DNA of 64,000 bases from Escherichia phage DCP80, in the sequence record PQ671644.1, one strand, 5' to 3'. The notes beneath the pieces were generated by a model. It did no database searches and had not been told where the DNA came from. It was given only the letters and a program-made list of their open reading frames with translations. This document shows, piece by piece, positions 1,470-36,935 of the stretch. The first letter of the stretch is position 1. Every line of letters begins with the position of its first letter. Position numbers and translations under genes: made by a program.

Positions 1470-1744
1470 AATTTTATATCTACGATTACAAAAACCAATT
1501 AAGAACCAACCAGATTGTTCGTACTGGTGATTTGAACCATCAGAACCCTAACGTTTATTCAATCAAGATATACGGTACGAAAACACAACTTGAACAAAAT
1601 CCGGACCAGCTAATCAAAGCTGCTCTGCGTCGTATCAGCGAACAATTCGTAGATACAACTTACATCATTCCTGAGGTTGAAATCCAGATAACTGGTGGAT
1701 TGAAATCTTATGCTGAAATTTTTGTGAGGACTTATGAACATTGA
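1466..1744 (+). CDS. Hypothetical protein upstream of terminase
   Basis: 92-aa ORF translationally coupled to flanking genes. Confidence 0.4.
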   Translation: MKFYIYDYKNQLRTNQIVRTGDLNHQNPNVYSIKIYGTKTQLEQNPDQLIKAALRRISEQFVDTTYIIPEVEIQITGGLKSYAEIFVRTYEH

Positions 1745-3716: not shown

Positions 3717-4201
3717 TGGCTGAAATTACAAATCCCGATGTTACCTTATACATCGGTTCTGAACTAACTGTTACTATCAAGGGCTCCCATGGGGCCTTTG
3801 GACGTAATGACGGTGAAACATATGGTTTAGAAAACGGTATAAATAAAATCAATACAGACAATCTGACACCAGGTGTTTACACGTTAGTTGATTATGCTGA
3901 TACAATTGAATTCACACGTTATGCTGTGAAATCTCCGTTCGGTAAACAATCTCAACTTGAACAAATTAAAGAAATGATTCGCGCAATCAGAGCTTGTTTG
4001 TTAGCACGTGTGAACGGTGATGATGCATATCTTCAAAGCATGGCTTCAGATGGTTATACATTTGCTTATGCTTCTGTCATGGAGCTTGAAGAATTGTTAT
4101 CTGCAAACGAACGCAGATTAGCAAGAGCCAAACAAGCAGATGACATTAAGAAAGGTAAATCACCTATGAGAACAATTAAAGCGAGGTTCCGTCATGCTTA
4201 A
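3716..4201 (+). CDS. Head-module protein of unknown function (at lambda W position)
   Basis: 161-aa ORF between terminase and portal, overlapping both. Confidence 0.35.
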   Translation: MAEITNPDVTLYIGSELTVTIKGSHGAFGRNDGETYGLENGINKINTDNLTPGVYTLVDYADTIEFTRYAVKSPFGKQSQLEQIKEMIRAIRACLLARVNGDDAYLQSMASDGYTFAYASVMELEELLSANERRLARAKQADDIKKGKSPMRTIKARFRHA

Positions 4202-5735
4202 TCCATTTAAAGTCTTCAAAAGAAATGGTATAAATAAAGCTATTAAAAAGAAACAACGTGATGAACAAAAATTACGAATCATCAACGATTCACCACGAAG
4301 TCAAATTCGTGCTCTGGCTGTACAGTCTTCACGTTTAACAGAAACATTTGAACAAGATATGATTCGCGGTTCTATTAACCCTGCGATTCGTCTTGGAAAT
4401 CAGGCTTTAATGGACCAGGCCCAAACAATGGCTGTACAATCTGTTTACGGTAAAAAAGCTGTTCAATACAGTATCGACCAGGTTGTTGGTGCAGAGGGAA
4501 TTCTGCCTATGCCGATTGTTATGAAAAATAAAGAACTTGATGAAGCACTGAACGATGAAATCAGTTATGAATTTGATAAGTGGGCACGTAAAGCTTCTAA
4601 ATTTTCAACCAACGGACAAATGAACTTCCGTCAATTCCAACAGCAAATGGAAGCATCAAGATTTATTTTTGGTGAAGCTTTTGCGATTATCGAAGAAGAT
4701 GATTATGGAATTCGTGTTGAGGTAATTTCTCCGCAACGTTGTCGAATGAATTATTCCGAAAAGACCAAAGAAGGTAACTATATCATCGATTCAATCGAGT
4801 ATACCCCTAGTGGTCGCCCTGTAGCTTATTATTTTGAAATTCTTGACGTAATGGCAAACGATTCCATCACTGGTAATAAATTCCGTGTTGATGCTGATGA
4901 TTGTTTCCACTATTTCAAACCAAACGTTCCAGGACAACGACGTGGGATTTCTGAATTCGCACCTGTTATTAAAGAGTTGAACCAGTTGGATGAATTTACG
5001 TTTTCTACAATCGTTCAAAAACGTATGGCTTCTAACAGCATGGGATTCATTACAACAGATGCAAACGGTCACGATTCAATTGATATTGAAATGGACGATG
5101 AAGCTGATGATGTTTATCAAGAGCCGGATATTATCCAAGAATTTGAAGCTGGTACGATGCACCAGTTAGCCGCTGGTCAAGACATTAAACAAATTACAGC
5201 AACACAAGGAGCTGATGATTATGTCGCGTTTAACTCCGCTATGGAATCAAAAATCGCAATGGGTTTTGGATTCTTTAAACAGGGTTTTCTTGGTGATACC
5301 AGTTCAATTAACTATTCCTCTGCTCGATTTGGTGATGCACAGCAACGTAATATGATTAAATCAACACAATCAACTTTGCGTGAATCTGTTCTGGAACCAT
5401 TATATGAGCGTTGGCTTGAGTGGATGTATATGCAAGGGAAATTGGTCAAATCAGACCGAATGGTTGAGTTTATTGCAGTTAATACAGATTGGATTTATCC
5501 TAAATCTGAGAGCATCGACCCAATGAAAGACCTTGATATCGAGATTAAAGCCGTTGAAGCTGGTATGCGCACCCGTCGTGATGCAATTACAAGACTTGGT
5601 GGTGACGATGTTGATGCAACTTTTGCTGGTATCGAAGCTGAACAAGGTTTACGCGTTCCGAAGAATGAACAACAGTTGGCTGCAGTATCTGCTCCTGCAG
5701 AAATCGCCGCCGGGGTCTCCGAAGAAGGTGTATAA
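4194..5735 (+). CDS. Portal protein, lambda gpB-like
   Basis: 513 aa, position directly after terminase; size and sequence character of lambda-family portals. Confidence 0.75.
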   Translation: MLNPFKVFKRNGINKAIKKKQRDEQKLRIINDSPRSQIRALAVQSSRLTETFEQDMIRGSINPAIRLGNQALMDQAQTMAVQSVYGKKAVQYSIDQVVGAEGILPMPIVMKNKELDEALNDEISYEFDKWARKASKFSTNGQMNFRQFQQQMEASRFIFGEAFAIIEEDDYGIRVEVISPQRCRMNYSEKTKEGNYIIDSIEYTPSGRPVAYYFEILDVMANDSITGNKFRVDADDCFHYFKPNVPGQRRGISEFAPVIKELNQLDEFTFSTIVQKRMASNSMGFITTDANGHDSIDIEMDDEADDVYQEPDIIQEFEAGTMHQLAAGQDIKQITATQGADDYVAFNSAMESKIAMGFGFFKQGFLGDTSSINYSSARFGDAQQRNMIKSTQSTLRESVLEPLYERWLEWMYMQGKLVKSDRMVEFIAVNTDWIYPKSESIDPMKDLDIEIKAVEAGMRTRRDAITRLGGDDVDATFAGIEAEQGLRVPKNEQQLAAVSAPAEIAAGVSEEGV

Positions 5736-5788: not shown

Positions 5789-7789
5789 ATGTCGCAAACA
5801 ATCAGATTAAAACGTGAAATTTCTGTAGAGAAAATTCAGGCTGATGAAGACGGGATTTATGAAATTGCATTTTCTTCTGAAACCCCTGTTGAACGTCAGA
5901 TTGATACTCGTCACGGTCCACAAATTGTGAATGAAATTCTCATGCACACAGGTCCGGAAAACGCAGATTTAGAGCGTATAAATAATAATGCAAGCTTGCT
6001 GTTTAACCACAATTTCGACAACCATTTAGGTGTTGTTGTTCCTGGTTCAGTACGTATTGACAATGATAAAGTTGGCCGCGCTAAAGTAAAATTTTCAAGC
6101 GTTGGACAATTAGCACAAGAGATTAAAGCCAAGGTCGATGAAGGCACAATCTCAAAAATTTCGTTTGGATACGACATTAACGAGTATGATGTTGTTGGTG
6201 ATGACATGCTTGTTTCTCGTTGGGCACCATATGAAATTTCTTTCGTCACTGTCCCGGCAGATGATAAGGTTGGCCTCGGCCGCAGTATAAATAATATTGT
6301 AATTAACACAAATAAGGAAAAACGAATGAAACGTTACGAAGATTTTGAAATTGAAGACATCGTTGAACTGTCACGTGAAGAACTCGCTGATATGACAATC
6401 GCTGAAATCGAAGCCCTGGCTGAAGATGTACGTGCTAAGCGTGAAGAATTGCTTGACGAAGTTGAAGACGCTGAGAAAGAAGAAAAAGTTACCGATGAAG
6501 AAGATGCTGACTACGACAAAGCTGAAGGCAAAGATGCAGAAGCTAAAGTTGAAGATAAAAAAGCCGAAGGCATCGAAGACGAACTCACTGCTGAAGAGCG
6601 TGAAGAAGAAATCATCGAAATTGAAGAAATCGCTGAACGATACAAAATCGGTCGCGGAGAAGTTCGCAAAGCCATCGCAAGTGGCATGACTGCTCGTCAG
6701 TTCAAACGTTCTATTAAACCATCTAAAAACAAAAAGGAAATTCGTACTATGACTACCTCTATCGCTAAAGATACCCAGAAAAACCTCGAAGCTCGTTTTG
6801 ACCTGGCTGAAGTAACCCGTTCACTTGCTGCTGGTAAAGACATTAAAGGCGCTGCTGCTGAGTACTCTCAGGAAATGACTCGTAAACGTCAGAACGCAGG
6901 TCGTGACATTAACGGTCGTGCATATATCCCGGTAAGTGCTCTGCAAGGTCAGCGCGCAGTAAACACCGTTCCTACCGTTGCAAATATCGAACAGCACTAC
7001 GTTGATTACAACAGCTTTGTTGAATTGCTGCTCAAACCAACTGTAATTGGTAAACTGGGTGTTAACTTCCAGACCGGTCTGACCACTCCTTACGATGTAC
7101 CGAAACAAACTTCCAGCTCTGTTGATGCGTTTGGTTTCGTTGCTGAAAACGGTGACTCTCCTGAAGGCGAAAGCGGATTTGACATCATCAAATTCATGCC
7201 GCACACCTTTACTGGTGGTAACCCGATTTCTCGTCAGGCTCTTAACACCATGCCTAACCTGGCAAGCTTCATCTCTAACCACATCGTAGAACAATCTCGT
7301 TCTAAGATTCAAGGTCTGATGTTTGGTTCTGCTACTGACCCGGTTGCTTCTGGTGCTAACGCTCCGCAGAGCATCATCGCTCAGTTGGTTGCTAAGCAGA
7401 TTGGTATGACCTACAAAGAATTCGTTACCCTGGCTGCTGAAGCTGAAGGTAAAGGCGTTGCAATGGACCGCTTCAAGTATCTGATTGCTTCTGCACTTGG
7501 TGGTGAACTGAAATCCACTCTGCGTGATGCTGCTGTTGCTGGTTACATCATCGATGATGAAAACCGTATCGGTGGTCATGATGTAGTTACCTCTGGTCTG
7601 GTTAAACCTGGTCAGATTCTGTCTGGTGACTTCTCTGCAATCACTGTTGCTGAATGGGAAGGTCTGGCACTGGATATGGACGACACGACCTATCGTAACA
7701 AAGGCGCTATCGTTCCGCGTGTTTGGTGTGATATCGATTGGAAAGTTACTGCTGACGACCGTCTGTTCTTGTTCGAAAAGACAGCATAA
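5789..7789 (+). CDS. Fused prohead protease (HK97/S78-like) - acidic scaffold - major capsid protein
   Basis: N-terminus has LLFNHNFDNHLG and ISFVTVPADDKV motifs like HK97 gp4; central acidic coiled coil; C-terminal ~330 aa capsid-like. Confidence 0.7.
   Translation: MSQTIRLKREISVEKIQADEDGIYEIAFSSETPVERQIDTRHGPQIVNEILMHTGPENADLERINNNASLLFNHNFDNHLGVVVPGSVRIDNDKVGRAKVKFSSVGQLAQEIKAKVDEGTISKISFGYDINEYDVVGDDMLVSRWAPYEISFVTVPADDKVGLGRSINNIVINTNKEKRMKRYEDFEIEDIVELSREELADMTIAEIEALAEDVRAKREELLDEVEDAEKEEKVTDEEDADYDKAEGKDAEAKVEDKKAEGIEDELTAEEREEEIIEIEEIAERYKIGRGEVRKAIASGMTARQFKRSIKPSKNKKEIRTMTTSIAKDTQKNLEARFDLAEVTRSLAAGKDIKGAAAEYSQEMTRKRQNAGRDINGRAYIPVSALQGQRAVNTVPTVANIEQHYVDYNSFVELLLKPTVIGKLGVNFQTGLTTPYDVPKQTSSSVDAFGFVAENGDSPEGESGFDIIKFMPHTFTGGNPISRQALNTMPNLASFISNHIVEQSRSKIQGLMFGSATDPVASGANAPQSIIAQLVAKQIGMTYKEFVTLAAEAEGKGVAMDRFKYLIASALGGELKSTLRDAAVAGYIIDDENRIGGHDVVTSGLVKPGQILSGDFSAITVAEWEGLALDMDDTTYRNKGAIVPRVWCDIDWKVTADDRLFLFEKTA
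6286..6293 (+). promoter_or_regulatory. Internal TATAAATA late promoter inside the protease-capsid ORF
   Basis: TATAAATA then AAGGAAAAACGA-ATG, in frame, at about 6326. Confidence 0.5.
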
Positions 7790-8759: not shown

Positions 8760-10859
8760 ATGATGGCTGAAGTTTTTGCAGGAACTAAAGTACGTATGGC
8801 TGTTAACGAAGACCTAACTTCTAACAGCCCTATGTACATTGACGCAGGGTATGTACCCTTAGATAATCTGGTTGCATTTCCAGAGATAACCACACAAACT
8901 GAAACATACAAAATGGAATCATATAACGAGGATTATGAGCGCGTTATATTAGGAGCATATGGTTCCGCCCCAGTTACAATCCAAGTTGCCGAAGTTGCCG
9001 ATGATGAAGCACAAGGTATCCTTGACAAGTATCTTAACTCAATGAAAATGTTACGATTCCGTATCATGTGGGTTGAAAAGGAATTACCTCCGGTTGAAGG
9101 TATGCCTGCTGAAGAACAATACAGTGGTCCAACTGCAATCTTTGATGCTTATGTGACTTCTACTCATCTGTCGGGTGGTGAAAACCAAACTGTTATTCGC
9201 AGTTATACATTATCCCCGTTTGGAAAAGTTACACGTGATGTAACAAACCTTGGTGAGTACGTTCGTCGTGGACAATATGGCGTAGGTGGTGGTACAACTG
9301 ATTATCCGGGCCCTACAGACACCAATAGTTATGAAGGTAACCGTTGGGTCAACCTGTCGGCAGCAAGCTCCCAGAACCCATTTGCGGACTCCACAGGGGC
9401 TATGACAGTACAATCAGGTGAGCAAGGTTGGGCATTAGTCGGTTCTTCAACTGGTAACATGATGCTCCGTGCCAGAAACCGTCAGCTATCACGTGTTGGT
9501 GAGTGGACCAAAATCTATACCTCCGCTGAACCACCTACTGCAGCTGAAATTGGTGCTATCCCAACAGTAGGTGATGCTTATGTACAAGGTAACTTGAAAG
9601 CAAACAGCTTCTACGTAACTGATACTGCTGGAACAACTATCACCACGCAGATTAACAAAGACGGTATCACCACTAACGTGTTGAAAATCACAGGCTCTGT
9701 TAACTCTCCTAACTCTAATATCAGCGGCACATCAACGCTTAATATTGTAACGGCGAATAAGTTAACTGCTCAGGAATTGATTTCTCCATTGGCTCGTATT
9801 GATACTGGTACAGTTACAACGTTGGGTTCAACTGATTTCACAGCTTTCGACGCAGTTGTTAATAACAAGTTGGTTGCGAAAGAAGCAGAGATTGATGATT
9901 TAACGATTAACACAAGATTCCACGTAGGTGCAGGTGCTTCGTTCCAGATTGCTGGTAACGTACAATCAGCAACTGTAACTGCAACGGATAAAGTTACAAC
10001 CAAGAACCTTGAAGTACAAGAGGTTGAAAAGGTTGGACAAGTTAACCCTAACCGTGTTTTTATTCACTCTGTAAATGAGACTCCAGAAGCATACGACTCC
10101 ATGAACACAGGTATATCGCCTAAGTTGTCGTTATCCCAAGCAGCAACATTAGTTGGATATGCAGGTGAATTTAAACCAGACGGCTCAACACTGAAAGCTT
10201 ACGAGTTTACAAACAACTTGCAACAGTTAGAAAATGCCAGAATTACCAACTTAACAGTTGTGAATGGAATTGGTGTTAATAACTTATCATTCAGTGGGGC
10301 AATCACAGCTGGTAATAGCGATGCTAAGATTTTGTTAGAAACTCCGGACCAAGTTATTGTCTCAAATGATGCAACTCCTGGAGTAGCTGCAGCTCACTGG
10401 ACTGAAATTCGAGCAGGTGTTATCTACATCGATGGTAAACCAATTTGGCACGATGGTAATATCCCTAACGTTGTACAAATGGGCGGTGTTCCATTAAATG
10501 GTAACTCAACAATAACTGGTGATGTAACTGTTAAAGGCCGTGTTTCTGCTGATTCAATGCGTGTCGGTCCAAACATTTTGATGACAACGGACCTTATAAA
10601 TATTGGTATCGGAACAATCAAAATCGGTGGACAAGAAATTTTCCATCCAGGTAACCCTCCAACTGCTGCACAATGTAAAGCTGTTCCATTAGCTGGTAAC
10701 TCGAGAATGGACGGTGAATTGACAGCTAACAAACTTTACGAGTACAACACTGTTACTTCTACACAAGAACGTGTTTTTAGCCCGTTAAACAGACCAACTG
10801 CAGCAAATGCCGGTGTTATGGTTCTGCTTGGTGACGTTATCGATTTTGGTTTAGAATAA
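8760..10859 (+). CDS. Tail-tube-like N-domain with long fibre-like repeat extension
   Basis: First ~100 aa paralogous to 13211..13705 (FAG, VP..FPE, Y.DNY motifs); C-terminus has repeated G/P/N-rich fibre motifs. Confidence 0.5.
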   Translation: MMAEVFAGTKVRMAVNEDLTSNSPMYIDAGYVPLDNLVAFPEITTQTETYKMESYNEDYERVILGAYGSAPVTIQVAEVADDEAQGILDKYLNSMKMLRFRIMWVEKELPPVEGMPAEEQYSGPTAIFDAYVTSTHLSGGENQTVIRSYTLSPFGKVTRDVTNLGEYVRRGQYGVGGGTTDYPGPTDTNSYEGNRWVNLSAASSQNPFADSTGAMTVQSGEQGWALVGSSTGNMMLRARNRQLSRVGEWTKIYTSAEPPTAAEIGAIPTVGDAYVQGNLKANSFYVTDTAGTTITTQINKDGITTNVLKITGSVNSPNSNISGTSTLNIVTANKLTAQELISPLARIDTGTVTTLGSTDFTAFDAVVNNKLVAKEAEIDDLTINTRFHVGAGASFQIAGNVQSATVTATDKVTTKNLEVQEVEKVGQVNPNRVFIHSVNETPEAYDSMNTGISPKLSLSQAATLVGYAGEFKPDGSTLKAYEFTNNLQQLENARITNLTVVNGIGVNNLSFSGAITAGNSDAKILLETPDQVIVSNDATPGVAAAHWTEIRAGVIYIDGKPIWHDGNIPNVVQMGGVPLNGNSTITGDVTVKGRVSADSMRVGPNILMTTDLINIGIGTIKIGGQEIFHPGNPPTAAQCKAVPLAGNSRMDGELTANKLYEYNTVTSTQERVFSPLNRPTAANAGVMVLLGDVIDFGLE

Positions 10860-10898
10860 AATTAATCGGGGCTTCGGCCCCCTAAATGAGGAATTAAA

Positions 10899-13136
10899 AT
10901 GGCTGACGTACGCGCAAATTCAAAATTTAAATTTCGTAGGTCTCGTAACCCTGGTTATATCCCTAAAGCAGCAGACCTATTAGAAGGTGAACTGTTTATC
11001 AACGTTGCTGATAAAAAATTGTATACAAAAGATGAAGAAGGTGGCGTAATTATTGCTATTGGCGGTGGTTCAGGCGGCGGCGGTGGTGAATTAGGCGGTG
11101 GCGCAATTATCATTCGTCCGGAAGACGCAGTTAACAGCAGCGGCAACTTGATTCTTTCTACAACTAAAGTTGGTGAAGCTTCTTATGCTCGTGGTTTATC
11201 TGGTCTTAATATGAAAATGCAGCAATATATACCAACTGATTCAGACCCAATAAACGTTGACTCGCTTTATCTGGAGATTGGCTCCAAAACCCAACTCAAC
11301 GATGGAGCAGCCAACCCTTATGTTGAAATTCCCGGTAAATTGGCATTTGTTACATCTCGCGGAAACTCATCAGGCGTAACAACTGCATCACCTGGTGCAA
11401 CAGTAATAACTGCAAAACCTGGTGCAACATGGCACCGTGAATTTGGTACCCCTGTTGATGAATCAACACTAAAACTTGGCGACGGCACGGTCACGATTTC
11501 TTCAAAAGACATTATAATTGGTAAGAGCACATCAGATGTTTTTACAAAATCTATACAAAATAATATGGTTTATATTAACAGCCCAAATCTTATTTTAGGT
11601 GGTTCTGTTGACATTTCTGGATTAAAAACTTTAAACGGCGGCGCAACCTCAACAATTGATGTTGGTGCTTTAACTTCACAAGGTAACACAGTTGTTAAAG
11701 GTGACCTTTATGTTGAAGGTGAAATTATTTCTGGCTCCCCAACTCCAGGTCCAAAGCCTTTAGAAGACTTAGCTGGATTAAGTTTAAAATTAACATATGG
11801 TGCAACAGTTGGTACTAATATTGATGCTGGTGGTTATGTTCGTTTAAAAGACGAATTAACTGTTAAAGGTAAACAAAATACAACTGATTACGAATTTAGT
11901 ATCCAACATCGTAATCGTTCCGGTGAAGACTGGGAAGGTAACACAATTTTTTATTCAGAAACTTTCTTAAAATCAACTAATGATGTTTATTTTGTTTCAG
12001 AAATTAATGAATTTACAACTTCTGACCCAACTTATCAAAACATAAGAGCAGCTAATATCCGTGGTAGCAATGGTACCTTTAGTGGTAATTTAACTGGTTA
12101 TTATGGTGGATTCTTTGATAATAATATCACAATCAACGAAAACGGTATTAATTTAGCAAATGATTCTGGTTATTCACTTGGATTAAACTTCTTCAGTAAT
12201 AAATCTGTTGCAATCAGTCTGAAAACTGAAGCCGATGGTGCTGGTCTGGTAACCGATTATAATGCATCTTATACCAAGTTGAAAGATGATGAATTTGTTA
12301 TCGGTACCTCAATTGGTGATGGTTTTAAAGGTGTTACAATCAATAACGTTAAAGAGACAAACGCGGGCGTAACTGTTACTCCTTCCGTTTCTTCTACAAC
12401 TGTTAAACTGATTGAAGCTAACTATGGTAACTTTTCTCCATATATCAGTTCAACGTCCAACAGCATCACTATTGCACCTGATGAACAATCTAAAGTAACT
12501 TTTAGTAACACTGGTGTAGTATTTGGCCGTGAAGTTACAACTCCTGCTGTTCAATTAGGTCAGGCCAGGGTTGAGCAAACTGGTAACATCCTGGGTGGTA
12601 CATGGGGTGTAGACCTTAAGAGTTATATCAATAACCAGATTGCAAATGGATTTGTTAACGTTACAACCAACACTGTACAACTTCCTGATGCATTAATCAG
12701 TGCAGACGGTAACGTAACTGGTGGTATCTGGGGCACTGATAAGACTTTGAAAGAGTATATCGATGCTAATGCAGGCGGTGGCGGCGGTTCAGGTGGTCGT
12801 AAAGAAGCGGTTAAAGTTTGGACTGGTTCTGTATCCGGCGCGGCGAACACAAGCCCGATGACTATTACTTCTACAGAAGATGGTGACTTCCGTTGCGGTG
12901 GAAAGTTAATGCTTAAAGAATCATCTGGTGCTTGGTTAGAGTATGATTTTGATTGTCCAGATTCAGCATCACCTCCGGCTGGCACTGTTCAGTTTAACAG
13001 ACAAATCTTTTCTCAGAACACAGGCGCATCTGATATGATTCTTGCTCAGAACAGCATGTCCGGTACAAAAACTACATGGTCGCTTTACGGTCACGCTCGT
13101 AAAACATACACCGAAGCTTGGTGGCGTCCATACTGA
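10899..13136 (+). CDS. Tail fibre protein with glycine-rich linkers
   Basis: 745 aa; N-terminal GELFINVADKKLYTKDEEG fibre motif; GGGSGGGGGELGGG and GGGGGSGG linkers. Confidence 0.55.
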   Translation: MADVRANSKFKFRRSRNPGYIPKAADLLEGELFINVADKKLYTKDEEGGVIIAIGGGSGGGGGELGGGAIIIRPEDAVNSSGNLILSTTKVGEASYARGLSGLNMKMQQYIPTDSDPINVDSLYLEIGSKTQLNDGAANPYVEIPGKLAFVTSRGNSSGVTTASPGATVITAKPGATWHREFGTPVDESTLKLGDGTVTISSKDIIIGKSTSDVFTKSIQNNMVYINSPNLILGGSVDISGLKTLNGGATSTIDVGALTSQGNTVVKGDLYVEGEIISGSPTPGPKPLEDLAGLSLKLTYGATVGTNIDAGGYVRLKDELTVKGKQNTTDYEFSIQHRNRSGEDWEGNTIFYSETFLKSTNDVYFVSEINEFTTSDPTYQNIRAANIRGSNGTFSGNLTGYYGGFFDNNITINENGINLANDSGYSLGLNFFSNKSVAISLKTEADGAGLVTDYNASYTKLKDDEFVIGTSIGDGFKGVTINNVKETNAGVTVTPSVSSTTVKLIEANYGNFSPYISSTSNSITIAPDEQSKVTFSNTGVVFGREVTTPAVQLGQARVEQTGNILGGTWGVDLKSYINNQIANGFVNVTTNTVQLPDALISADGNVTGGIWGTDKTLKEYIDANAGGGGGSGGRKEAVKVWTGSVSGAANTSPMTITSTEDGDFRCGGKLMLKESSGAWLEYDFDCPDSASPPAGTVQFNRQIFSQNTGASDMILAQNSMSGTKTTWSLYGHARKTYTEAWWRPY

Positions 13137-13210: not shown

Positions 13211-13705
13211 ATGTCTACATTTGATATTTTTGCAGGTTCGTATGTATCGGTTTTCATGACTGAAGACATCACTAACAAACTCCCGGCTTTCGCAGGTTAT
13301 AAATTTGTTCCAGAAACGGGTGCTTTCCCTGAATCCGGTTCAGAGCGTCAGGTAATCGATGTTCCTAACTACTCTGATAACTATAACCGTAAACTGGTTG
13401 GTCGTGGTTCTGTTCCGGCTATTGACCTTACTGTTAACTACAAAGCTGGCTCTATCCATGATACTCTTTCTAAATTGTCTGATGACGGTAAACGCTTCCA
13501 GATTAAAATTGTATACTGGATGGACGGTACTTATACTGATGGTATCGCAATCATCTATAATGGCTTCTTGAGTTCAGACCGTACAACTGGTTCTGATAGT
13601 TCTGCTGTTCAGAAAGTGTTTACGTTTGAAGTTGATGGTGGCCCGGTTGCTCGTGCTATCGTTACAGGCAGCGGTGAGAAACCTACCGAAGAGCCTATCG
13701 TTTAA
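13211..13705 (+). CDS. Major tail tube protein
   Basis: 164 aa, own late promoter, directly upstream of chaperone pair and tape measure. Confidence 0.6.
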   Translation: MSTFDIFAGSYVSVFMTEDITNKLPAFAGYKFVPETGAFPESGSERQVIDVPNYSDNYNRKLVGRGSVPAIDLTVNYKAGSIHDTLSKLSDDGKRFQIKIVYWMDGTYTDGIAIIYNGFLSSDRTTGSDSSAVQKVFTFEVDGGPVARAIVTGSGEKPTEEPIV

Positions 13706-13710
13706 TGAAC

Positions 13711-13732
13711 GGGACCTTCGGGTCCCTTTTTT
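13711..13732 (+). terminator. Rho-independent terminator
   Basis: GGGACCTTCGGGTCCC plus TTTTTT. Confidence 0.75.
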
Positions 13733-13735
13733 GTT

Positions 13736-13743
13736 TATAAATA
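13736..13743 (+). promoter_or_regulatory. T4-type late promoter TATAAATA
   Basis: TTTATAAATATTGC upstream of the tail chaperone gene. Confidence 0.6.
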
Positions 13744-13776: not shown

Positions 13777-14133
13777 ATGAACTTAGATGAATTAATGGAA
13801 GCGGTAACCCCTGAAGGGTTGGAATTCCTGGAAGTAAAATTAAAAGACAAAACTTTTAAATTCTATTGTCAACCAATGGACCTGAAAACTTATCAACTTT
13901 TTACAATGAACAGAGACCTTGCTGCTGTTGCTCCTTACGTTATTATGAAAGGGATTGTTGATGTTGACCGTAACCCTATTTTTAAAACAGCAAAACAAGT
14001 AACAAACCTGCCCACATGGTTGCAGAGTGATTTATTCAACTACGTTTTCGCATTTACAACTCGTTTGCCAGAAGACGTTGAGATTGAACAAAGTTTAAAG
14101 CCGATTGGGTCAAAAGATTCCGCTACCGATTAA
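13777..14133 (+). CDS. Tail assembly chaperone, G-like
   Basis: Start moved to internal ATG with SD AAAGAGG (track ORF 13744); precedes frameshift partner and tape measure. Confidence 0.5.
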   Translation: MNLDELMEAVTPEGLEFLEVKLKDKTFKFYCQPMDLKTYQLFTMNRDLAAVAPYVIMKGIVDVDRNPIFKTAKQVTNLPTWLQSDLFNYVFAFTTRLPEDVEIEQSLKPIGSKDSATD

Positions 14134-14144
14134 TTCTTCGTGGA

Positions 14145-14462
14145 TTGCTTCCAGAGATTATTGATAGCATGTCATTGCATGAATTTAAAGAGCTCTATAT
14201 TATGGATACCTATTTGGAACCGCAAGGACCAAACGCAGACGAAATGAGAGCAGCCAGACAAATTCATGCTCAATATATGACATCTCCAAACATGACCGCA
14301 AAAGCTGCTAAGGAAATTAAAGTTACAAACTTTACAATGCTTGGTAAAAATGTGTTCAAAACTCAGGAAGACATCATTGAAGAGAATAAAATCAAACAGA
14401 AAGAGGCTATGGAGCTTCAATTCGGCGACCTTTTGGCCCAAATGAAAAAAGAGGAAAAATAA
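14145..14462 (+). CDS. Tail assembly chaperone T-like segment (probable -1 frameshift extension of G)
   Basis: ORF in -1 frame with no ATG start; slippery TTTAAAG near end of upstream gene. Confidence 0.45.
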   Translation: MLPEIIDSMSLHEFKELYIMDTYLEPQGPNADEMRAARQIHAQYMTSPNMTAKAAKEIKVTNFTMLGKNVFKTQEDIIEENKIKQKEAMELQFGDLLAQMKKEEK

Positions 14463-16877
14463 ATGGCTGGTTCAAATTATAATTTAGAGATTACAGGTGA
14501 TAATAATAAATTTAAGCGTGTTGTCTCCGATTCCATGAAGCAGCTTGATGATTTATCTAAAAAAACCGGTGGTGCTTTTGCAAGCATCTCCGGTCAAATG
14601 GGTAATATGTCAGGACTGTTAAGCTCTATTAAAGGACTCCCTGCGCCATTGATGGCTGTTGGTGCTGCTGCTTCTGCGGCTTCATTAGCTTTTGATGCTT
14701 TTAACAAATCAAGAGACCAAGTTGCTGACCTTAATAAGTTGTCAACTGCAACAGGATTAACTGTTGAAGAATTACAGAAAATAACAAACGCTTTCAAAGA
14801 AACTGGTATTGAAATGGAACAATTCACGGCTATTAACCAGGACACGCTTGATAAGTTAGCAGACGGTGTTAAAGATGGTTCCGGTATTGTACAAGACCTG
14901 AAAGATTATGGAATCGAAGTACAACAATACTCCGAATTTATTAACCAGGCAAATGGTGGTTTAAAAGCTGTTATTCGTACGTTCTATGAAATGCAAGCAG
15001 CTGGTAAATCTCAAGCAGAAATGATTAACATGATGGAAGCAATGGGTTCAGACGCTTCTAAACTGATTCCTATTCTTAAGAATCTGGGTTCAGAACAATT
15101 AGCTCTCCAACACATCAATGGACAATCTGTTACTGTTACTAATGAAATGGCCGAATCTTACAAAGCATATGAAACAGCATTGTCAAAAATGTCAACAGAA
15201 GTTGATGCTCTGCGTAACGATGCAATGGTACCATTTGTTGAAATCATGACGGATATCCTGGAAGATGGTGGAAAGGTAATTCAAATTATTAACTCCATTC
15301 GTACTGATGATTCACAGGAAAACATCAAACGTTTAACAAAAGAATTTGGTGCATTAGCCGAATCTATTAAATTCGTTGCGGACACGTGGGACATGTTAAC
15401 TGGACTGGAACATTGGCTTGATGATGCAAAAGATAAATCCCAATCATGGATTGCAGATGGATTGGCAAGTGCAAGTAACAATGCGTTTGGTACGAATTTT
15501 AAAACAGATTCGATGATTAAATCTAACGCGCAAATTTCTGCCCGTGATTATGATATATCAGGTCCAGCTCCGCAAGGTGATTGGAAACCGGCAGCTCCCA
15601 AAACTCCTGACCCTAATGTCAATATGTATAACAAGGAAGATAACGATAAGGCTAAAAAGGCTAAATCTGCACAAGATGCGGCTAAGAAAGCAGCAGCGGA
15701 AATGGCTAAGCAGTTGGCTGAACGTAAGGCTATGCTTGCAGAAATTAATACAATTAACCAGAGTCTTTATACACAACAAGCATCAACCTTCGCAGCTGAA
15801 TCACAGCAGGCGGAAGCAAACGTTGCTAAGTTGCAGGAATTGCTCAGTAAAGGTATTATTACACAGCAAGAGTTTGAAACTAAACGTAAAGCTATCATAG
15901 ACCAATCAAGCTTCAACCTTGAACAAACTTTGCTTGGTACAACTGATGGTGACCTGTCAACTATCCTGGCTGGTATCAATCAGGTTTATACAGACACTAA
16001 CAATAACTTGAAATCCCAGTTGGAAGCACGTCTGATTACTCAGGAACAGTATAATCAGAAACTGGAATTAAACGAACAGATGCATACAGCAAGGATGTAT
16101 GAATTCCAAGTTGCAAAGGACAACTCCCTCCAGGCTCTTCGTGAATTAGGATTCACAACTGATGAAGAAAACTTCCAGATGGAAATGGAAAAAATGGACG
16201 AACAATTTGAGAAATTACAAGCTGATAACCAAGCTCGTTATGATGCACAGATTATTTCTTATGAAGAATTTCTGGCTTCTAAAGCTCGATTGGAAGATGT
16301 TTATGCAGCCAAATCAACTCAGTTGGAAAATGACCGAATGAAATCCAACCTGGCCGTTGGTGAATCTCTGGCAACTTCTATGCAGGGAATCTTTGCAGGT
16401 GCTTTTGGTGAACAATCTAAAGCTGCTAAAGCCGCGTTTGTTGTATCAAAATCTTTAGCAATCGCTCAGAGTACAATGGACGCTCACTCTGCTGCAACTA
16501 AAGCTCTGGCAACTTATCCACAACCAATGGGTGGAATCATGGCTGGTGCTGCTTATGCTCAGGTTCTGGCACAGGTTGCATCGATTAAATCCACCAACCT
16601 AACTGGTATGGCTCACGATGGCATTGATACCGTTCCAGAAGAAGGCACATGGTTACTCCAGAAGGGTGAACGTGTGGTTGATAACAGGACTAACCAAGAC
16701 CTGAAAGATTTCCTTCGTGATGGTTCCGGTTCAGGTGGTAATCCGATTGAGATTAATGCCCCATTAAATATCAGTGGGAACGTCGATTCTTCTGACAGAA
16801 TGGTAATGGATGCGATTAACCGTTATCCTGAAGAGGTTGCTCGCATGGTCGAGAAAGCACAATCTAAACGCATGTAA
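14463..16877 (+). CDS. Tail tape measure protein
   Basis: 804 aa, Ala/Gln-rich coiled-coil, standard position after chaperones. Confidence 0.8.
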   Translation: MAGSNYNLEITGDNNKFKRVVSDSMKQLDDLSKKTGGAFASISGQMGNMSGLLSSIKGLPAPLMAVGAAASAASLAFDAFNKSRDQVADLNKLSTATGLTVEELQKITNAFKETGIEMEQFTAINQDTLDKLADGVKDGSGIVQDLKDYGIEVQQYSEFINQANGGLKAVIRTFYEMQAAGKSQAEMINMMEAMGSDASKLIPILKNLGSEQLALQHINGQSVTVTNEMAESYKAYETALSKMSTEVDALRNDAMVPFVEIMTDILEDGGKVIQIINSIRTDDSQENIKRLTKEFGALAESIKFVADTWDMLTGLEHWLDDAKDKSQSWIADGLASASNNAFGTNFKTDSMIKSNAQISARDYDISGPAPQGDWKPAAPKTPDPNVNMYNKEDNDKAKKAKSAQDAAKKAAAEMAKQLAERKAMLAEINTINQSLYTQQASTFAAESQQAEANVAKLQELLSKGIITQQEFETKRKAIIDQSSFNLEQTLLGTTDGDLSTILAGINQVYTDTNNNLKSQLEARLITQEQYNQKLELNEQMHTARMYEFQVAKDNSLQALRELGFTTDEENFQMEMEKMDEQFEKLQADNQARYDAQIISYEEFLASKARLEDVYAAKSTQLENDRMKSNLAVGESLATSMQGIFAGAFGEQSKAAKAAFVVSKSLAIAQSTMDAHSAATKALATYPQPMGGIMAGAAYAQVLAQVASIKSTNLTGMAHDGIDTVPEEGTWLLQKGERVVDNRTNQDLKDFLRDGSGSGGNPIEINAPLNISGNVDSSDRMVMDAINRYPEEVARMVEKAQSKRM

Positions 16878-16904: not shown

Positions 16905-17465
16905 ATGATTAACAGTAAAGAAGTTGTCTTAACAGACATGAAACTAAGCGATAACGCTCAGGTGTTTACCTCCCAAACATTTACAGGGAAGGTACAACGT
17001 CGATTCTCCGGGATTCAATATTACACGCTGAAATTCAGTGCTCAGTATAACAAAAAAGATATTGCAGTTGTTAAAAGATTTTTGACAGAGTATAGATTTG
17101 GTAAACCATTTAACCTGCCGCTTCCTAAGTACTCCGGTTCAACTAGCACGGTAACTGGTAACGTTGCTGCTGCTATTGCTGCTCCAGCTGGTTCACGAAA
17201 GGTTAAACTTTCAGGATTCACGGGTCAGCTTGATGTTGGTACGGTTATTCAATTTGCTAACCATAAAAAATTATACCAAGTTGCATCAGATACAAGAGGT
17301 AACGGTGAACTTTCTATCGTTCCTAATCTGCGAGCTGCTGTACAAGTTGGTGAATTGATTAAGTACAGGAACATCGAAGGTAGCTTTATCCTTACAACTG
17401 ACTCTGTAGAATGGCCACAAACCGAACTGCAAACTATTGAACTAGAGGCGACAGAAAACGTATGA
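16905..17465 (+). CDS. Minor tail protein (distal tail)
   Basis: 186-aa ORF directly after tape measure. Confidence 0.45.
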   Translation: MINSKEVVLTDMKLSDNAQVFTSQTFTGKVQRRFSGIQYYTLKFSAQYNKKDIAVVKRFLTEYRFGKPFNLPLPKYSGSTSTVTGNVAAAIAAPAGSRKVKLSGFTGQLDVGTVIQFANHKKLYQVASDTRGNGELSIVPNLRAAVQVGELIKYRNIEGSFILTTDSVEWPQTELQTIELEATENV

Positions 17466-18260: not shown

Positions 18261-18677
18261 ATGATGTACGAAAGACATATCAAAATCATCAACATCATTG
18301 ATAAGTATCGTGGTGAAGAACATGTGTATGGATTAAATGATTGTAATATCCTTGTAGCAGATGTTATCGACGCACTATGTGGAACGGAGTATGCTGATAA
18401 ATTACGTGGAAGTTACGACAGCATAATCTCAGGGATGATTGTTGCAAAGGAAAAGGTTGGATTCTCCAACGCAAGACAAGCTCTTGTTAAACACGGTGAA
18501 AAAGTTGATTATCCGATGAACGGTGATTTCTGTATCATCAAGCACTTGAATGAAGGGAAAACCTTTTACGCAACAACCATTTATTGGAATGGGAAGGTTC
18601 TTCTAGAGAAAGATAATCATTATCAATGGTGTCTTTTTGAAAAAGACAATTACAAAGAATTCTTTAAGGTGGTATAA
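18261..18677 (+). CDS. Tail-associated protein, possible NlpC/P60-like peptidase (lambda K position)
   Basis: 138 aa with GLNDCN cysteine motif; position before tip protein. Confidence 0.4.
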
Positions 18678-18678
18678 A

Positions 18679-21600
18679 ATGGCAGTAGTAGCTATAGGTG
18701 TAATTGTTGCAGCGGCATCAGCAGGTGCTGCAGCGGCGGCCGCTGGTTTATCAATAGCATTATCTATTGGTATCGCCGTTGCAGTTGGTGCGTTAAACGC
18801 ATTAATGACATACAGCATGATGAATCAACAATCAGCAAGCTTCAACTCTCCTGATACTGGTTCAACATTAGGGACAGCAAGTAACCCAAGCACAGTTCTC
18901 CCGTTAGTTTATGGCGAACAACGTGTTGGTTCTATTGCAGTTTGGAAAGCTCTTGACAACCAAGACAGACGTCGCCTGGTACAAGTGTTTGCTGTTGCTC
19001 AGGGTGAAATTGATGGATTCAAACAGCTCTATATGGACAACAAGAAAATCTTCCGTGATGATTTGTTCTTCCGTAATGGCGTTGTGCAGAATGGACAGAT
19101 TCTTGACATCTATAAAAAAGCTGTTGAAGTTGAATTTGGTTGTGGTGGTCCAGGTCAGAAAGCTTCTGTTCTTGCTCAGAAATATCTGGGTAAAGGCGAA
19201 TGGCCAGATACAATGACCGGTAACAACGTTGCATGGTGTGTTATTGTTATGTACAAATCCAACGACCAGTTACAAGACGGTGTTGACATCCTCCAGCCAC
19301 AATCACAAGTTGCTCTGGATATTGTTGGGAAGAAAATCACAGACCTTACAACAGGTGTAGTTGGTCCATCTCAGAACGGTCCATCTCAGGCATACGATTA
19401 TTTCGTAACCCCAACCGGCCGTGGTGGTCTTGGAATCTCTGGTACTAAACTGGATATTGATTCCTTCCGTGAAGCTGCGTTTAAAGTATCAGGAGCCAAG
19501 CTTTATTCCAATGGTACGTTTGACCCGAACGCAACTGCTAAAGAAAACCTGACACAGCTGTGTGGTAGTTTCCAAGGATTTTGTTTAACTCAATTCGGTT
19601 TAATCTCTCTGGTTATTGATGAACCAGCTCCAGTTGCATGGTCTTTTACAGAGAACGAAGTTGAATTAAAAGATGTTTCCCTGAAAGATGGTGAATCGGA
19701 AAAAGACTGGAACGTATTAAACGTGTCTTATCAGGAACCTCGTCTTGATTACTCCAGCCAGATTCTGCGTTATCCTTCTGTTATTACCCCAGAATGGATT
19801 CAAGCAAACGGTGACCCGAAATCAAAAGACATTGAGTACAAATTTGTTAAAGATAAAGCACAGATTGATAAGTTAGCTTCTATTGAACGAAACAAAATGA
19901 GCCTGACTCGTAGCGTTACTTTCAGAACGTTTGCAACTTATACAGTACAAGTTTGGGACGTTATCGAATTTACTTTCGAAGAATTCAATCTTAACAAATC
20001 TAAATGGCGCGTAACTTCTGTTAACCGTGATGCAATCGGTGGTACCTTCGGTGCTGTAACGATTCAAGCATCAGAGTATAACGAACAAGTATACACCAAT
20101 ATGGATTTTGCTAACAACCCTAACTATAACGAATCAAACATTCCTAACGTTGGAGTTCTTCAGCAGCCAACCAATCTTCGTTGTCGTGCTGTAATGGCTA
20201 CTAACTTTGGTACAAGCTTCCTCGCAACATGGGACGCTATCCAAGATTACAACCGTATCGGATTCCGTGTAGAGTACAAACGCTCCGGTTCAAACAACTG
20301 GATTAACGGTGGTACGACTTCATATAATGAATTCCGTATCGAAGGTCTGGTTATGAATGATGGTGAGCTGATTGATGTACGAGTTTGTGCATACGGTTTG
20401 TTCGGTCGTTCAGAATGGGTAACACTGCAAGCTTCACAAGAGATTCCATATGACCTCCCAGGAGTCACAGGATTGCGTCTGGTGAACAATGCCGGTAATG
20501 CTAACACTACACTAGATAAAGACTTTATCTTCGCATGGGACGACCAGGGCGACCAGATACTGACAATTGATGGTGAGCGTGTGAAGTACAACCAAGTGTT
20601 CAGTCATTATCAGATTTATGTAACAGTTAATAACGTTGTACGTACCTACGTTACCAAAGATGTTGGATTCACGATTTCTTATGAAATCAACCGTGATATT
20701 GCTGGTATTGCTAAACGTGATGTTAAGATTGAAGTGCAACCGATTGGTGTACAACGCCGTTCAGGTCCTAAAGTTGGAATGACAGCAAGGAACAACCAGG
20801 CAACTGCGATTCAGAACTTCAACGCTACTCCAGGTTTTGGTTATATCGTTTGTTCATGGAATGACCCGATATCAATTCCAGATTGGGCAGGTACACAGAT
20901 TCAGTTCAGTAAGACTCCAGGATTTGAGACTCCACTTTATGCAACAACTTCCGACCGCTTCCAACAGTTTGTAGATATTGATGATGGCGATTACTATGTA
21001 AGAGCTGGTTGGTTTGACGTGTTCGGTGTTGATAATGAAATGGTTCTCTCCCAACCGATTTTTGTTTCTCTGAAATCGAAGGTGGACTGGACGCAGCAAG
21101 ACCAAGACCAGATTGATGACCTGTTGAACTTAACAGACCGTCTTGACCAGGCGATTGCTGATGCTCTTCTGTTAGCTGGACAACAAATGACAATCATGGA
21201 AAATCGTATCAACGAAACAACTGATGCGAAGATTTTAAATTCCAAAGCAACAACCCTTACTGAAGCTGGTGAGATGATTGCACAGCAGATTAACATTGTT
21301 AACTCTAACATGGATGAAATGTCTGCAACAATCACCAAACTTGACCAAGCTGTAACGTCTCCGACAGGTTCGGTTGCAACGCAGATTAATCAGGTTAAAG
21401 CTGAAATGGGTTCACAGATTGCATCGGTTGACCAGGAATCTAAAGCAAGTATCGATAAGTTAACAGGGGATATTAACTCCAGTTATTCATTAGCAGTTAA
21501 TGCTAATGGTCGTGTAGCTGGTATGAAGTTAATCGCTTCTAATGACCCAACTAAAGATACTGCAATCTATTTCACCGCAGACAAGTTTGCGATTACTTCT

Positions 21601-22437
21601 CAGACAGCTGGTGGAACAACGATTATTCCGTTTGCAGTACAAAACGGTCAGGTGTTTATGAACAGCGCATTGATTGCTAACGCATCAATCGGTTCAGCTC
21701 AAATCGCCAACGCAGCTATTAACAATGCTAAGATTTCTGATGCGGCTATCAACACAGCCAAAATCCAGGATGGAGCCATCACTAATGCTAAAATTGTTAA
21801 CGGTGCGATTGATAACGCTAAGATTGGTCAGTATATAAGAAGCAACGACTTTGTATCAGGTTCTCGTGGATGGAACATAGATAAAAGTGGTTATGCTGAA
21901 TTCAACAACGTAACAGTTCGTGGTAACATCTACGCGAATAATGGATTATTCAGAGGACGTATCGAAGCTACTGACGGTTATTTTAGTGGTACTGTTTACG
22001 CTAACAAAATCGAAGGTGATATCGTTACACCTGAGCGTGGTACAGTTGGATTGGACTTCCGTTGGGAAGGTGACCTCAGTGGTACAAGAAGAGTAATGCA
22101 ATTCGCCGGTGCTGATTATAAACGATTCCTGGATTCAAACTTAGTGTTAAGGATTTATGCTACATGGGAAAACAACGAATTCCGTGTTTATAGTTGTTCT
22201 TCAGCTGGTCATAGAACCGAATTGTTCTACTATCGTAACCCAGGACCATATGCAGGTGTTAAGGATTTCAGACTACAAGGTGTACCATTAGAACAGGCTG
22301 GTAGAGCTGGGTCTAACTGGATTGAAGTAACAAATACGGCGAATAGAAACGCTAGATACGGTTGGTTTACAACTGATGGAACAAGTACATCTTATGTTTG
22401 CGCATATCGTGCAGGTTCACAACGTTTAGTTATATAG
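18679..22437 (+). CDS. Tail tip assembly / central fibre protein, lambda I-J fusion
   Basis: N-terminus has Ala/Gly-rich segment and [12 protein letters not shown] like gpI (LPVLYGEMRVGS); remaining ~1100 aa J-like; start set to ATG after SD AAGGTGG. Confidence 0.7.
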
Positions 22438-30710: not shown

Positions 30711-30720
30711 NNNNNNNNNN
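30711..30720. other. Assembly gap (N10), scaffold joint
   Basis: Run of N after the repeated terminal 111 bp. Confidence 0.9.
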
Positions 30721-35251: not shown

Positions 35252-35518
35252 TCAAAATATCACCTCTTTTATTTCAATCAGACCCCTGTGCAATGCGGTG
35301 CGAAGGTCATAAAGAATATCTATGCCATCAACATTATCCAGTTTTCCATCAATAAGCTTTTTTAAATCATGCTTTGATGCAACTAGCGGGCGAAGAAATT
35401 TACATTCAGAAAGAGACAATTCTGTAGTAATATCATCACCATCACCTGACGCATCATACATGGCAGCAACAACCATACCTGTAACTTTGTGCTTGGCGTA
35501 ATATAATTTAATATCCAT
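35252..35518 (-). CDS. Hypothetical protein, member of small paralog family
   Basis: MDIKLYYAKHKVTG; paralogs at 48689 and 48949. Confidence 0.4.
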   Translation of the reverse strand: MDIKLYYAKHKVTGMVVAAMYDASGDGDDITTELSLSECKFLRPLVASKHDLKKLIDGKLDNVDGIDILYDLRTALHRGLIEIKEVIF

Positions 35519-35762
35519 TCTGTTTTCCTCACGCATAACGATTGTATGTATTTTTACGACAAGCGTAAAATTGACGCTCAGTAACTGCAAAACTTTTTCC
35601 GCGTTGTTGCATTAATTTAAAAAATTCAGTAATATCGCCATTAACTTCAAGGTATAAAGTCATTGCATATTGAGCAGGTTTCATTTTATTCTCCAGTCTG
35701 TTTGGTAACTCAGTATGGAATCATTATGCACTGACTCCATACTGATGTACACTACTTTTTAA

Positions 35763-36932: not shown

Positions 36933-36935
36933 AAT

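What the first reader, a model, noticed from the sequence alone, without database searches (positions are those of the whole stretch)
14090..14150. Probable programmed -1 frameshift joining the two tail chaperone ORFs
The second chaperone ORF (14145..14462) has no ATG and lies in the -1 frame relative to the first. The heptamer T-TTA-AAG sits about 35 nt before the first ORF stop, the conserved G/GT mechanism of long-tailed phages.
Basis: partly seen in the sequence, partly recalled or inferred. Interest (0 to 1): 0.45.

Follow-up and report, generated by a model that had tools for sequence, protein, structure and literature searches.

The report
Tail chaperone G/GT -1 frameshift site
This is an ordinary but real example of the "slippery" signal long-tailed phages use to make a small amount of a fused tail-assembly chaperone from two overlapping genes, found here in a phage lineage whose two chaperone proteins are not recognised by current annotation databases.

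Summary
A 118-codon ORF (13777-14133) lies between the major tail protein gene and the tape-measure gene. A second frame, -1 relative to it, is open from 14088 to 14462. The heptamer T_TTA_AAG (14094-14100) is in the correct X_XXY_YYZ phase, 6 nt after that frame opens.

The -1 programmed frameshift reading is strongly supported:
- The -1 arrangement recurs in all 11 distinct related loci examined.
- The heptamer is invariant in the window's clade.
- Substitutions just downstream of the heptamer, ahead of any start codon, follow the -1 frame (7 synonymous/8 non-synonymous codons, against 0/14 and 2/12 in the other frames).
- Candidate internal starts have no Shine-Dalgarno pairing.
- No RNA stimulator was found, as is generally described for lambda G/GT.

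Predicted products are G (118 aa) and GT (228 aa, junction ...EQSLK|ADWVKRF...). This is a new member of a known kind and of low interest. One side point is modestly interesting. Distant Enterobacterales prophage relatives, annotated "cytochrome" and "hypothetical", keep only A_AAG at the homologous lysine, often directly before the stop codon.

The parts
13211..13705 (+). Major tail (tube) protein gene, upstream neighbour of the chaperone pair
   Evidence: phrog_158 major tail protein, E 2.3e-12. Weak Pfam Phage_tail_3 hit.
13711..13736 (+). Intrinsic-terminator-like hairpin (GGGACC-TTCG-GGTCCC) plus T run, between the tail tube gene and G
   Evidence: Consensus match only; function not tested.
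13777..14133 (+). G: tail assembly chaperone ORF, 118 aa, zero frame
14088..14133 (+). G/T overlap: the -1 frame is open from 14088, and the G stop is at 14131-14133
   Evidence: DNA identity to L002 peaks here: 93% against 71-78% in the body of G.
14094..14100 (+). Slippery heptamer T_TTA_AAG (G codons Leu107-Lys108). Predicted tandem -1 slip of tRNA-Leu (UUA to UUU) and tRNA-Lys (AAG to AAA).
   Evidence: Phase checked. Invariant in window, L001, L002-L004 and L006. U_UU.A_AA.G is listed among the most efficient -1 motifs in E. coli (PMC4066793).
14100..14462 (+). T segment: 120 codons read in the -1 frame only after the shift. GT fusion = G residues 1-108 + these 120 = 228 aa.
   Evidence: T-frame substitution signature from 14100 onward. 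No SD at TTG 14145, ATG 14169 or ATG 14202. The AF2 model gives a confident helix for residues 2-13, which are encoded upstream of any start codon. 16 of 29 homologues weakly hit PF06223 Phage_tail_T.
14463..16877 (+). Tape measure protein gene, downstream neighbour. Its ATG directly follows the T stop.
   Evidence: phrog_13674, E 2.5e-72. SD at -6.0 kcal/mol.

Best explanation
Genes 13777-14133 (G) and 14100-14462 (T frame) are the tail assembly chaperone pair of a siphovirus-type tail module.

Most ribosomes translate G to its stop and make a 118-aa chaperone. A minority slip back one nucleotide on T_TTA_AAG (14094-14100), when tRNA-Leu is in the P site and tRNA-Lys is in the A site. They re-pair on TTT_AAA and continue from GCC (14100) in the -1 frame to TAA at 14460. 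The product is a 228-aa GT fusion with the junction ...VEIEQSLK|ADWVKRFRYRLILRGL....

By analogy with lambda, the shared G part would bind the tape measure protein and the T part would recruit the tail tube protein. The fixed low shift rate would set the G:GT ratio.

Shown here: the anatomy, the frame relationship, conservation of the site, evidence that the -1 frame is under protein-coding selection from the heptamer onward, and the lack of initiation signals.

Inferred: the slip itself, its efficiency (probably a fraction of a percent to a few percent, with no stimulator detected), and the assembly role.
For: 1. Gene order is major tail protein, G, T, tape measure, distal tail protein.

3. 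The canonical heptamer is in phase, 6 nt after the -1 frame opens. It is the only in-frame heptamer in the 64-kb window followed by a long -1 ORF.

4. The heptamer is identical in all relatives of the window clade, which come from six independent assemblies, although G is only 52-73% identical in L006 and L002.

5. T is -1 relative to G in all 11 distinct loci. The shift-site lysine AAG sits at the homologous position throughout. The preceding codon varies: TTA, AAA (A_AAA_AAG in a Buttiauxella prophage), GTA or GAA.

6. Substitution pattern over 14100-14168, window against L006: 28 nt differences. The T frame has 7 synonymous and 8 non-synonymous codons, the G frame 0/14 and the third frame 2/12. 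Within the overlap itself, against L002, all 3 changes are synonymous in the T frame. The same signature appears in the enterobacterial clade, 38:33 against 3:60 and 9:62.

7. SD pairing is -5.6 to -8.5 kcal/mol for 13 real gene starts. It is -2.1 to -2.9 for the three candidate T starts, which equals the background of -2.2 for internal start-like codons.

8. U_UU.A_AA.G is among the most shift-prone motifs in E. coli and is active without stimulators (PMC4066793). The lambda G/GT mechanism and its wide conservation are described in PMC5009743.
Against: - No protein-level evidence was available.
- The window's own G and T sequences hit no Pfam or PHROG family directly. Family assignment is transitive through homologues and through a predicted structure.
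- Homology of T to lambda T is weak: best Pfam E 2.5e-4, hhalign E 0.095, Foldseek E 0.06.
- No downstream RNA structure or upstream SD-like stimulator was found. Fold z-scores were +0.5 to +0.9, and the alifold consensus was -6.4 kcal/mol. Efficiency may therefore be low.
- The host and its tRNA-Lys complement are unknown.
- The window clade has only four sequence lineages, so conservation statistics rest on few substitutions.
Confidence: 0.9

Rival explanations
1. T is an independent gene. It would be initiated at TTG 14145 or ATG 14169, or made by termination-reinitiation after the G stop, with no fusion product.
For: Gene callers annotate T homologues as separate 86-125-aa proteins. Many enterobacterial relatives have a Met near the homologous position. 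In L005 an ATG overlaps the G stop as TGATG.
Against: - The candidate starts have background-level SD pairing.
- ATG 14169 is not conserved in L006, whose first in-frame ATG is 100 nt after the heptamer.
- The T-frame coding signature and conserved residues (KA[DN]WVKRFR) begin at the heptamer, 45 nt upstream of the first start-like codon.
- Residues 2-13 of the T segment model as a confident helix.
- In L011 no ATG, GTG or TTG exists between the frame opening and a region already under T-frame selection.
Confidence: 0.04
2. A -1 shift does occur, but at a different position in the overlap. One candidate is the TCA_AAA tetramer at 14112-14115. Another is transcriptional slippage rather than ribosomal slippage.
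For: A_AAA at 14112 is a Z_ZZN tetramer in phase. L002 and L006 carry a run of six A just upstream of the heptamer.
Against: - T-frame residues A-D/N-W-V, encoded at 14100-14111, are conserved with synonymous changes (GCC to GCT, GAT to GAC). The shift must therefore happen at or before 14100, and the frame only opens at 14088.
- The window has no homopolymer longer than 4 nt in the overlap, too short for efficient polymerase slippage. This last point rests on general knowledge and was not tested.
Confidence: 0.03
3. The split is an artefact or a decayed gene. A sequencing or assembly indel, or a pseudogenising frameshift mutation, would have broken a single chaperone gene.
For: The window contains N runs and a suspicious large inverted repeat elsewhere, so assembly quality is not perfect.
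Against: The same -1 arrangement occurs in 11 distinct loci from independent assemblies and finished genomes, including complete RefSeq E. coli chromosomes. G ends with an in-frame stop in all of them.
Confidence: 0.01

Closest known systems
Bacteriophage lambda G/GT tail assembly chaperone frameshift (Levin, Hendrix & Casjens 1993; Xu, Hendrix & Duda 2004; reviewed in PMC5009743)
   Same: - Two overlapping ORFs lie between the major tail protein and tape measure genes.
- The downstream ORF is in the -1 frame and lacks its own initiation signal.
- The heptamer is of the X_XXA_AAG type near the 3' end of G. Lambda has G_GGA_AAG; here it is T_TTA_AAG.
- No strong RNA stimulator is present.
- The T ORF ends at the start of the tape measure gene.
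   Different: - There is no detectable sequence similarity of G to lambda G (hhalign E 0.31), and only marginal similarity of T to lambda T.
- The P-site codon is UUA (Leu) rather than GGA (Gly).
- G is shorter: 118 aa against 140 aa.
HK97 tail assembly chaperone (PDB 2ob9) and prophage TAC-like proteins 3fgx, 3klu (YqbN) and 5ir0
   Different: Sequence identity is 10-14%. The comparison uses a predicted model (pLDDT 74.8), not a solved structure.
Pfam PF16459 Phage_TAC_13 / PHROG 344 (tail assembly chaperone), and PF06223 Phage_tail_T
   Same: Homologues of the window's G (profile E 1e-17 to 1e-45) hit Phage_TAC_13 (19 of 28) and phrog_344 (23 of 28). Homologues of T hit Phage_tail_T weakly (16 of 29).
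   Different: The window's own G and T give no hit at E <= 0.1. The hits of the relatives are weak: best 6e-6 for TAC_13 and 2.5e-4 for Phage_tail_T.
E. coli dnaX and IS3/IS911-type -1 frameshift signals
   Same: They use the same class of bacterial slippery motif ending in A_AAG, which exploits tRNA-Lys (PMC5009743, PMC4066793).
   Different: Those signals use an upstream SD-like element and/or a downstream hairpin or pseudoknot and reach high efficiency. None was detected here.

Membership tests
Lambda-type G/GT tail assembly chaperone programmed frameshift | Pair of ORFs located between the major tail protein gene and the tape measure gene | tested here: met
   MTP 13211-13705 (phrog_158), G 13777-14133, T frame to 14462, TMP 14463-16877 (phrog_13674).
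Lambda-type G/GT tail assembly chaperone programmed frameshift | Downstream ORF overlaps the 3' end of the upstream ORF in a shifted (-1) frame | tested here: met
   43-nt overlap, -1 frame. Same in all 11 distinct related loci.
Lambda-type G/GT tail assembly chaperone programmed frameshift | Slippery sequence in the correct phase within the overlap | tested here: met
   T_TTA_AAG at 14094-14100, with zero-frame codons AGT TTA AAG. Chance about 0.2-5%.
Lambda-type G/GT tail assembly chaperone programmed frameshift | Downstream ORF lacks its own translation initiation signal | tested here: met
   SD duplex energies are -2.1 to -2.9 kcal/mol for the candidates, against -5.6 to -8.5 for 13 real starts. 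The candidate ATG is not conserved.
Lambda-type G/GT tail assembly chaperone programmed frameshift | Shifted frame is under coding selection from the shift site onward, and the site is conserved in relatives | tested here: met
   T frame 7 synonymous/8 non-synonymous codons, against 0/14 and 2/12 in the other frames. The heptamer is invariant in the clade. The homologous Lys-AAG is kept family-wide.
Lambda-type G/GT tail assembly chaperone programmed frameshift | A G-T fusion protein is made at a low, fixed ratio and is needed for tail assembly | not testable with these tools
   Requires western blot, mass spectrometry, a reporter assay or genetics.
Tail assembly chaperone fold (HK97 gp TAC, 2ob9-like) | Structural similarity of the G protein to solved TACs | tested here: met
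Pfam PF16459 Phage_TAC_13 | Sequence match to the family HMM at or above the curated threshold | tested here: not met
   The window G gives 0 Pfam families at E <= 0.1. 19 of 28 homologues match weakly, best E 6.1e-6. The relationship is therefore transitive only.
Pfam PF06223 Phage_tail_T (lambda T domain) | Sequence or structural match of the T segment to lambda T | tested here: inconclusive
   The window T has no hit. 16 of 29 homologues match at E <= 0.01, best 2.5e-4. hhalign against lambda T gives E 0.095. The top Foldseek hit is a 'Minor tail T domain' protein, but at E 0.06.
Stimulated -1 PRF (dnaX/IS3 type) | Upstream SD-like element and/or downstream hairpin or pseudoknot | tested here: not met
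   Downstream folds are no better than shuffles, z +0.5 to +0.9. The consensus structure is -6.35 kcal/mol with negligible covariation. Only a weak GAG lies upstream.

The most novel reading that the evidence does not exclude
The pair may represent a previously unrecognised G/T chaperone family. The window proteins hit no Pfam or PHROG model. The T profile finds only 26 cluster representatives among 1.84 billion proteins. RefSeq names the G homologues 'cytochrome' and the T homologues 'hypothetical', with no slippage annotated.

In this reading, the conserved element of the family would be a single Lys-AAG shift codon. The P-site codon in front of it would be interchangeable: UUA, AAA, GUA or GAA. 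In many Enterobacterales prophages the AAG is the last sense codon, directly before the G stop (G_GUA_AAG_UAA).

That would imply that A_AAG single-tRNA slippage, possibly assisted by the adjacent stop codon, suffices for GT synthesis. The canonical heptamer of the window clade would then be a derived optimisation.
Probability: 0.4. Interest if true: 0.4.

Novelty: new member of a known kind. Interest (0 to 1): 0.2.

Why it matters
The finding allows correct annotation of this phage's tail module. G and GT should be annotated as one chaperone gene with ribosomal slippage at 14100, not as two hypothetical ORFs.

It also flags a family of Enterobacterales prophage genes that is currently mis-annotated as 'cytochrome' plus 'hypothetical protein'.

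Mechanistically it adds nothing new to the established G/GT paradigm. The only wider point is the variation of the shift site across the family: canonical heptamers in some members, and bare A_AAG next to a stop codon in others. That variation could serve as a natural series for studying the minimal requirements of -1 slippage.

Tried and rejected
**Searches that found nothing**
- Megablast and tblastn of the region, of G and of T against 50,697 GenBank phage records gave no match. Only the tape measure protein finds distant relatives, at 30-44% over parts of its length.
- IMG/VR scans with G and with the window-clade T alignment found nothing.
- The JGI metagenome scan and the GTDB genome scan gave no confirmed relatives. 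The window clade is known only from Logan/ENA assemblies.
- A PDB sequence search with the G profile found nothing significant. Only the fold comparison worked.

**Stimulator search: negative**
- Single-sequence folds of 60-147 nt downstream of the heptamer are not more stable than shuffles.
- RNAalifold gives a weak -6.35 kcal/mol consensus with no meaningful covariation.
- No convincing SD-like element lies 6-17 nt upstream.

**Homology of T to lambda T: inconclusive**
- Pfam scans, hhalign and Foldseek were all tried.
- The distant T-profile hits P0096-P0108 did not bridge to PF06223.

**Explanations rejected**
- Independent initiation of T, an alternative slip site, transcriptional slippage and an assembly artefact were each considered and rejected. 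The reasons are given under the rival explanations.

**Not examined**
- The antisense ORF 14172-14441 (89 aa, TTG) inside T was not examined further. The T-frame substitution pattern on the + strand makes it unlikely to be a gene.

Full report
**1. What is in the sequence**

The region sits in a phage structural module on the + strand. In order it contains:
- terminase large subunit, 1734-3716
- portal, 4194-5735
- a protease/major head fusion-like gene, 5789-7789
- two tail-fibre-like genes, 8760-10859 and 10899-13136
- major tail protein, 13211-13705 (phrog_158)
- tape measure protein, 14463-16877 (phrog_13674, E 2.5e-72)
- distal tail protein, 16905-17465 (phrog_1302)
- a J-like central fibre, 18637-22437

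Two ORFs lie between the tail tube and tape measure genes. The first I call G. It starts at ATG 13777, preceded by AAAGAGG, and stops at TAA 14131-14133 (118 aa). The second frame is -1 relative to G. It is closed by TGA at 14079-81 and 14085-87, and is then open from 14088 to TAA 14460-62.

The G-frame codons 14092-14100 are AGT TTA AAG. T_TTA_AAG (14094-14100) is therefore a canonical X_XXY_YYZ heptamer in the correct phase. It lies 6 nt after the -1 frame opens and 30 nt before the G stop. A tandem -1 slip would re-pair the tRNAs on TTT_AAA and continue with GCC at 14100. The result is a 228-aa fusion, ...VEIEQSLK|ADWVKRFRYRLILRGLLPEIIDSM....

The downstream frame does contain in-frame ATGs, at 14169 and 14202.

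**2. Is it more than chance?**

I counted in-frame canonical heptamers in the window's 52 long non-overlapping ORFs. There are 38 real ones, excluding N runs, in about 15,500 codons. A 14-codon overlap would therefore contain one by chance about 3-5% of the time. The bacterial high-efficiency type X_XXA_AAG would appear about 0.2% of the time.

Of all these heptamers, only this one is followed by a long -1 ORF. That ORF runs for 120 codons, and the runner-up runs for 26.

**3. What the two proteins are**

Neither protein hits Pfam or PHROGs directly. Neither has a relative in GenBank phages.

*G.* Profile searches of the large protein collection found a G family of 34 clusters, mostly in Enterobacterales prophages. 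NCBI names them 'cytochrome'. Of 28 aligned members, 19 match Pfam PF16459 Phage_TAC_13 and 23 match phrog_344, 'tail assembly chaperone'.

*T.* The T family is small. There are 50 clusters at 90% identity, all named 'hypothetical'. An exhaustive profile search found only 26 representatives among 1.84 billion proteins. Sixteen of 29 members weakly match PF06223 Phage_tail_T, best E 2.5e-4. Direct comparison with lambda T gives E 0.095. A fold search gives a 'Minor tail T domain' protein as the top hit, but at E 0.06. Both results are suggestive and neither is significant.

**4. Comparative evidence for the shift**

The close relatives are:
- L001, with G 98% identical to the window
- L002-L004, with G 73% identical, from three different samples
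- L006, with G 52% and T 72% identical

All keep T_TTA_AAG at the same place. DNA identity between the window and L002 is 71-78% across G. It rises to 93% in the 100 nt around the slip site and overlap.

The three variable positions in the overlap between the window, L001 and L002 are 14105, 14123 and 14127. All are synonymous in the -1 frame, and two of them change the G-frame amino acid.

Between the window and L006, the stretch 14100-14168 runs from the heptamer to just before the first ATG. It has 28 nucleotide differences. In the T frame these give 7 synonymous and 8 non-synonymous codons. The G frame gives 0/14 and the third frame 2/12.

The -1 frame is therefore translated from the heptamer onward. 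No ATG, GTG or TTG exists between the frame opening at 14088 and 14145. In addition, the T model places residues 2-13, encoded at 14103-14141, in a confidently predicted helix with pLDDT 87-92.

**5. No independent start for T**

I scored pairing of the 20 nt upstream of each start against the anti-SD sequence.
- Thirteen genuine gene starts in the window score -5.6 to -8.5 kcal/mol.
- TTG 14145 scores -2.4, ATG 14169 scores -2.9 and ATG 14202 scores -2.1.
- These values are indistinguishable from 200 internal start-like codons, whose mean is -2.2.

ATG 14169 is replaced by TTA in L006.

**6. The wider family**

I examined 11 distinct loci: the window, L002, L005-L007, L009 and L011-L015. They include Edwardsiella, Salmonella, E. 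coli, Citrobacter and Buttiauxella prophages. T is always -1 relative to G, and the overlap is short, 13-106 nt.

A lysine AAG codon aligns with the window's Lys108. The shift-site sequence varies by locus:
- T_TTA_AAG in the window clade
- A_AAA_AAG in L014
- G_GTA_AAG in L005, L007, L009, L011 and L015
- G_GAA_AAG in L012 and L013

In several loci the AAG is the last sense codon, directly before TAA.

In the G_GTA_AAG group, the 39 nt after the AAG lie largely beyond the G stop and before the first ATG. They also carry the T-frame signature: 38 synonymous to 33 non-synonymous codons, against 3:60 and 9:62 in the other frames.

The A_AAG element at this lysine is therefore the conserved core of the signal. 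This fits the known shiftiness of bacterial tRNA-Lys on A_AAG (PMC5009743; PMC4066793). RefSeq annotates these E. coli genes as 'cytochrome' and 'hypothetical protein', with no ribosomal slippage.

**7. Stimulators**

Folding 60-147 nt downstream of the heptamer gives energies no better than shuffled controls, with z-scores from +0.5 to +0.9. The alignment consensus is weak at -6.35 kcal/mol, and the covariation term is -0.38. It shows only a 5-bp GGGUC/GAUUC hairpin 6 nt after the heptamer. No SD-like element lies upstream.

This resembles lambda G/GT. There the heptamer G_GGA_AAG works at a few percent, giving a G:GT ratio of about 30:1 (PMC5009743). Sharma et al. list U_UU.A_AA.G among the most efficient E. 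coli motifs, with more than 0.1% shifting in the absence of stimulators (PMC4066793).

**8. Verdict**

Both the observation and the interpretation are supported. This is a typical lambda-type G/GT programmed -1 ribosomal frameshift.

The sequence anatomy and the comparative evidence are shown here. The physical fusion protein, its abundance and its assembly role are inferred by analogy. Confidence is about 0.9.

It is a new member of a known kind, in a lineage and protein family that current databases do not annotate. Interest is low. The only modestly interesting by-product is the variation of shift sites across the family.

Noticed in passing
window 35467-40993 and 42925-49000: A large inverted repeat, about 5.5 kb per arm at 94-98% identity. 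Each arm carries rIIA-like (744 aa) and rIIB-like (324/325 aa) genes. The arms flank a topoisomerase II large-subunit gene (41045-42793). One arm ends exactly at an N run (40994-41040). It could be a scaffold or strain-merging artefact, or a real duplication.
   Followed up: partly
window 30711-30720, 40994-41040, 49791-49800, 56743-56760, 62887-62940: Five runs of N, either masked stretches or gaps. ORF calls that cross them are unreliable.
   Followed up: no
window 13711-13736: An intrinsic-terminator-like hairpin, GGGACC-TTCG-GGTCCC plus TTTTTTGTTT, lies directly after the major tail protein gene and before G. It could lower chaperone and tape-measure transcription relative to the tube protein.
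   Followed up: no
L007 2963-2971, L009 2963-2971, L011 3861-3869, L012/L013 about 1801-1812: Enterobacterales prophage relatives lack a canonical heptamer. They have G_GTA_AAG or G_GAA_AAG, often with the AAG directly before the G stop codon. The -1 frame nevertheless shows a coding signature upstream of any start codon. This may be a stop-adjacent A_AAG shift site.
   Followed up: partly
L011 3561-4249 (E. coli NZ_CP071263.1 246085-246773) and one search hits: NCBI/RefSeq names the G homologues 'cytochrome' and the T homologues 'hypothetical protein', with no ribosomal slippage annotated. This is probably a propagated misannotation of a tail assembly chaperone.
   Followed up: partly
window 13777-15376 versus L002 4001-5600: Conservation is mosaic. 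DNA identity to L002 is 71-78% across G. It is 81-96% across T and the first 200 nt or so of the tape measure gene, then falls to 53-70%. At the protein level T is 97% identical and G is 73%. A recombination boundary may lie near the shift site.
   Followed up: partly
window 8760-13136: Two large tail-fibre-like genes (699 and 745 aa) lie upstream of the major tail protein gene rather than at the end of the tail module. The E. coli prophage relatives have the same order: tail fibre, tube protein, Gp38-like, G.
   Followed up: no
window 14463-16877 (residues 455-478): The tape measure protein carries a SHOCT domain match above the Pfam threshold (PF09851, E 3.8e-9).
   Followed up: no
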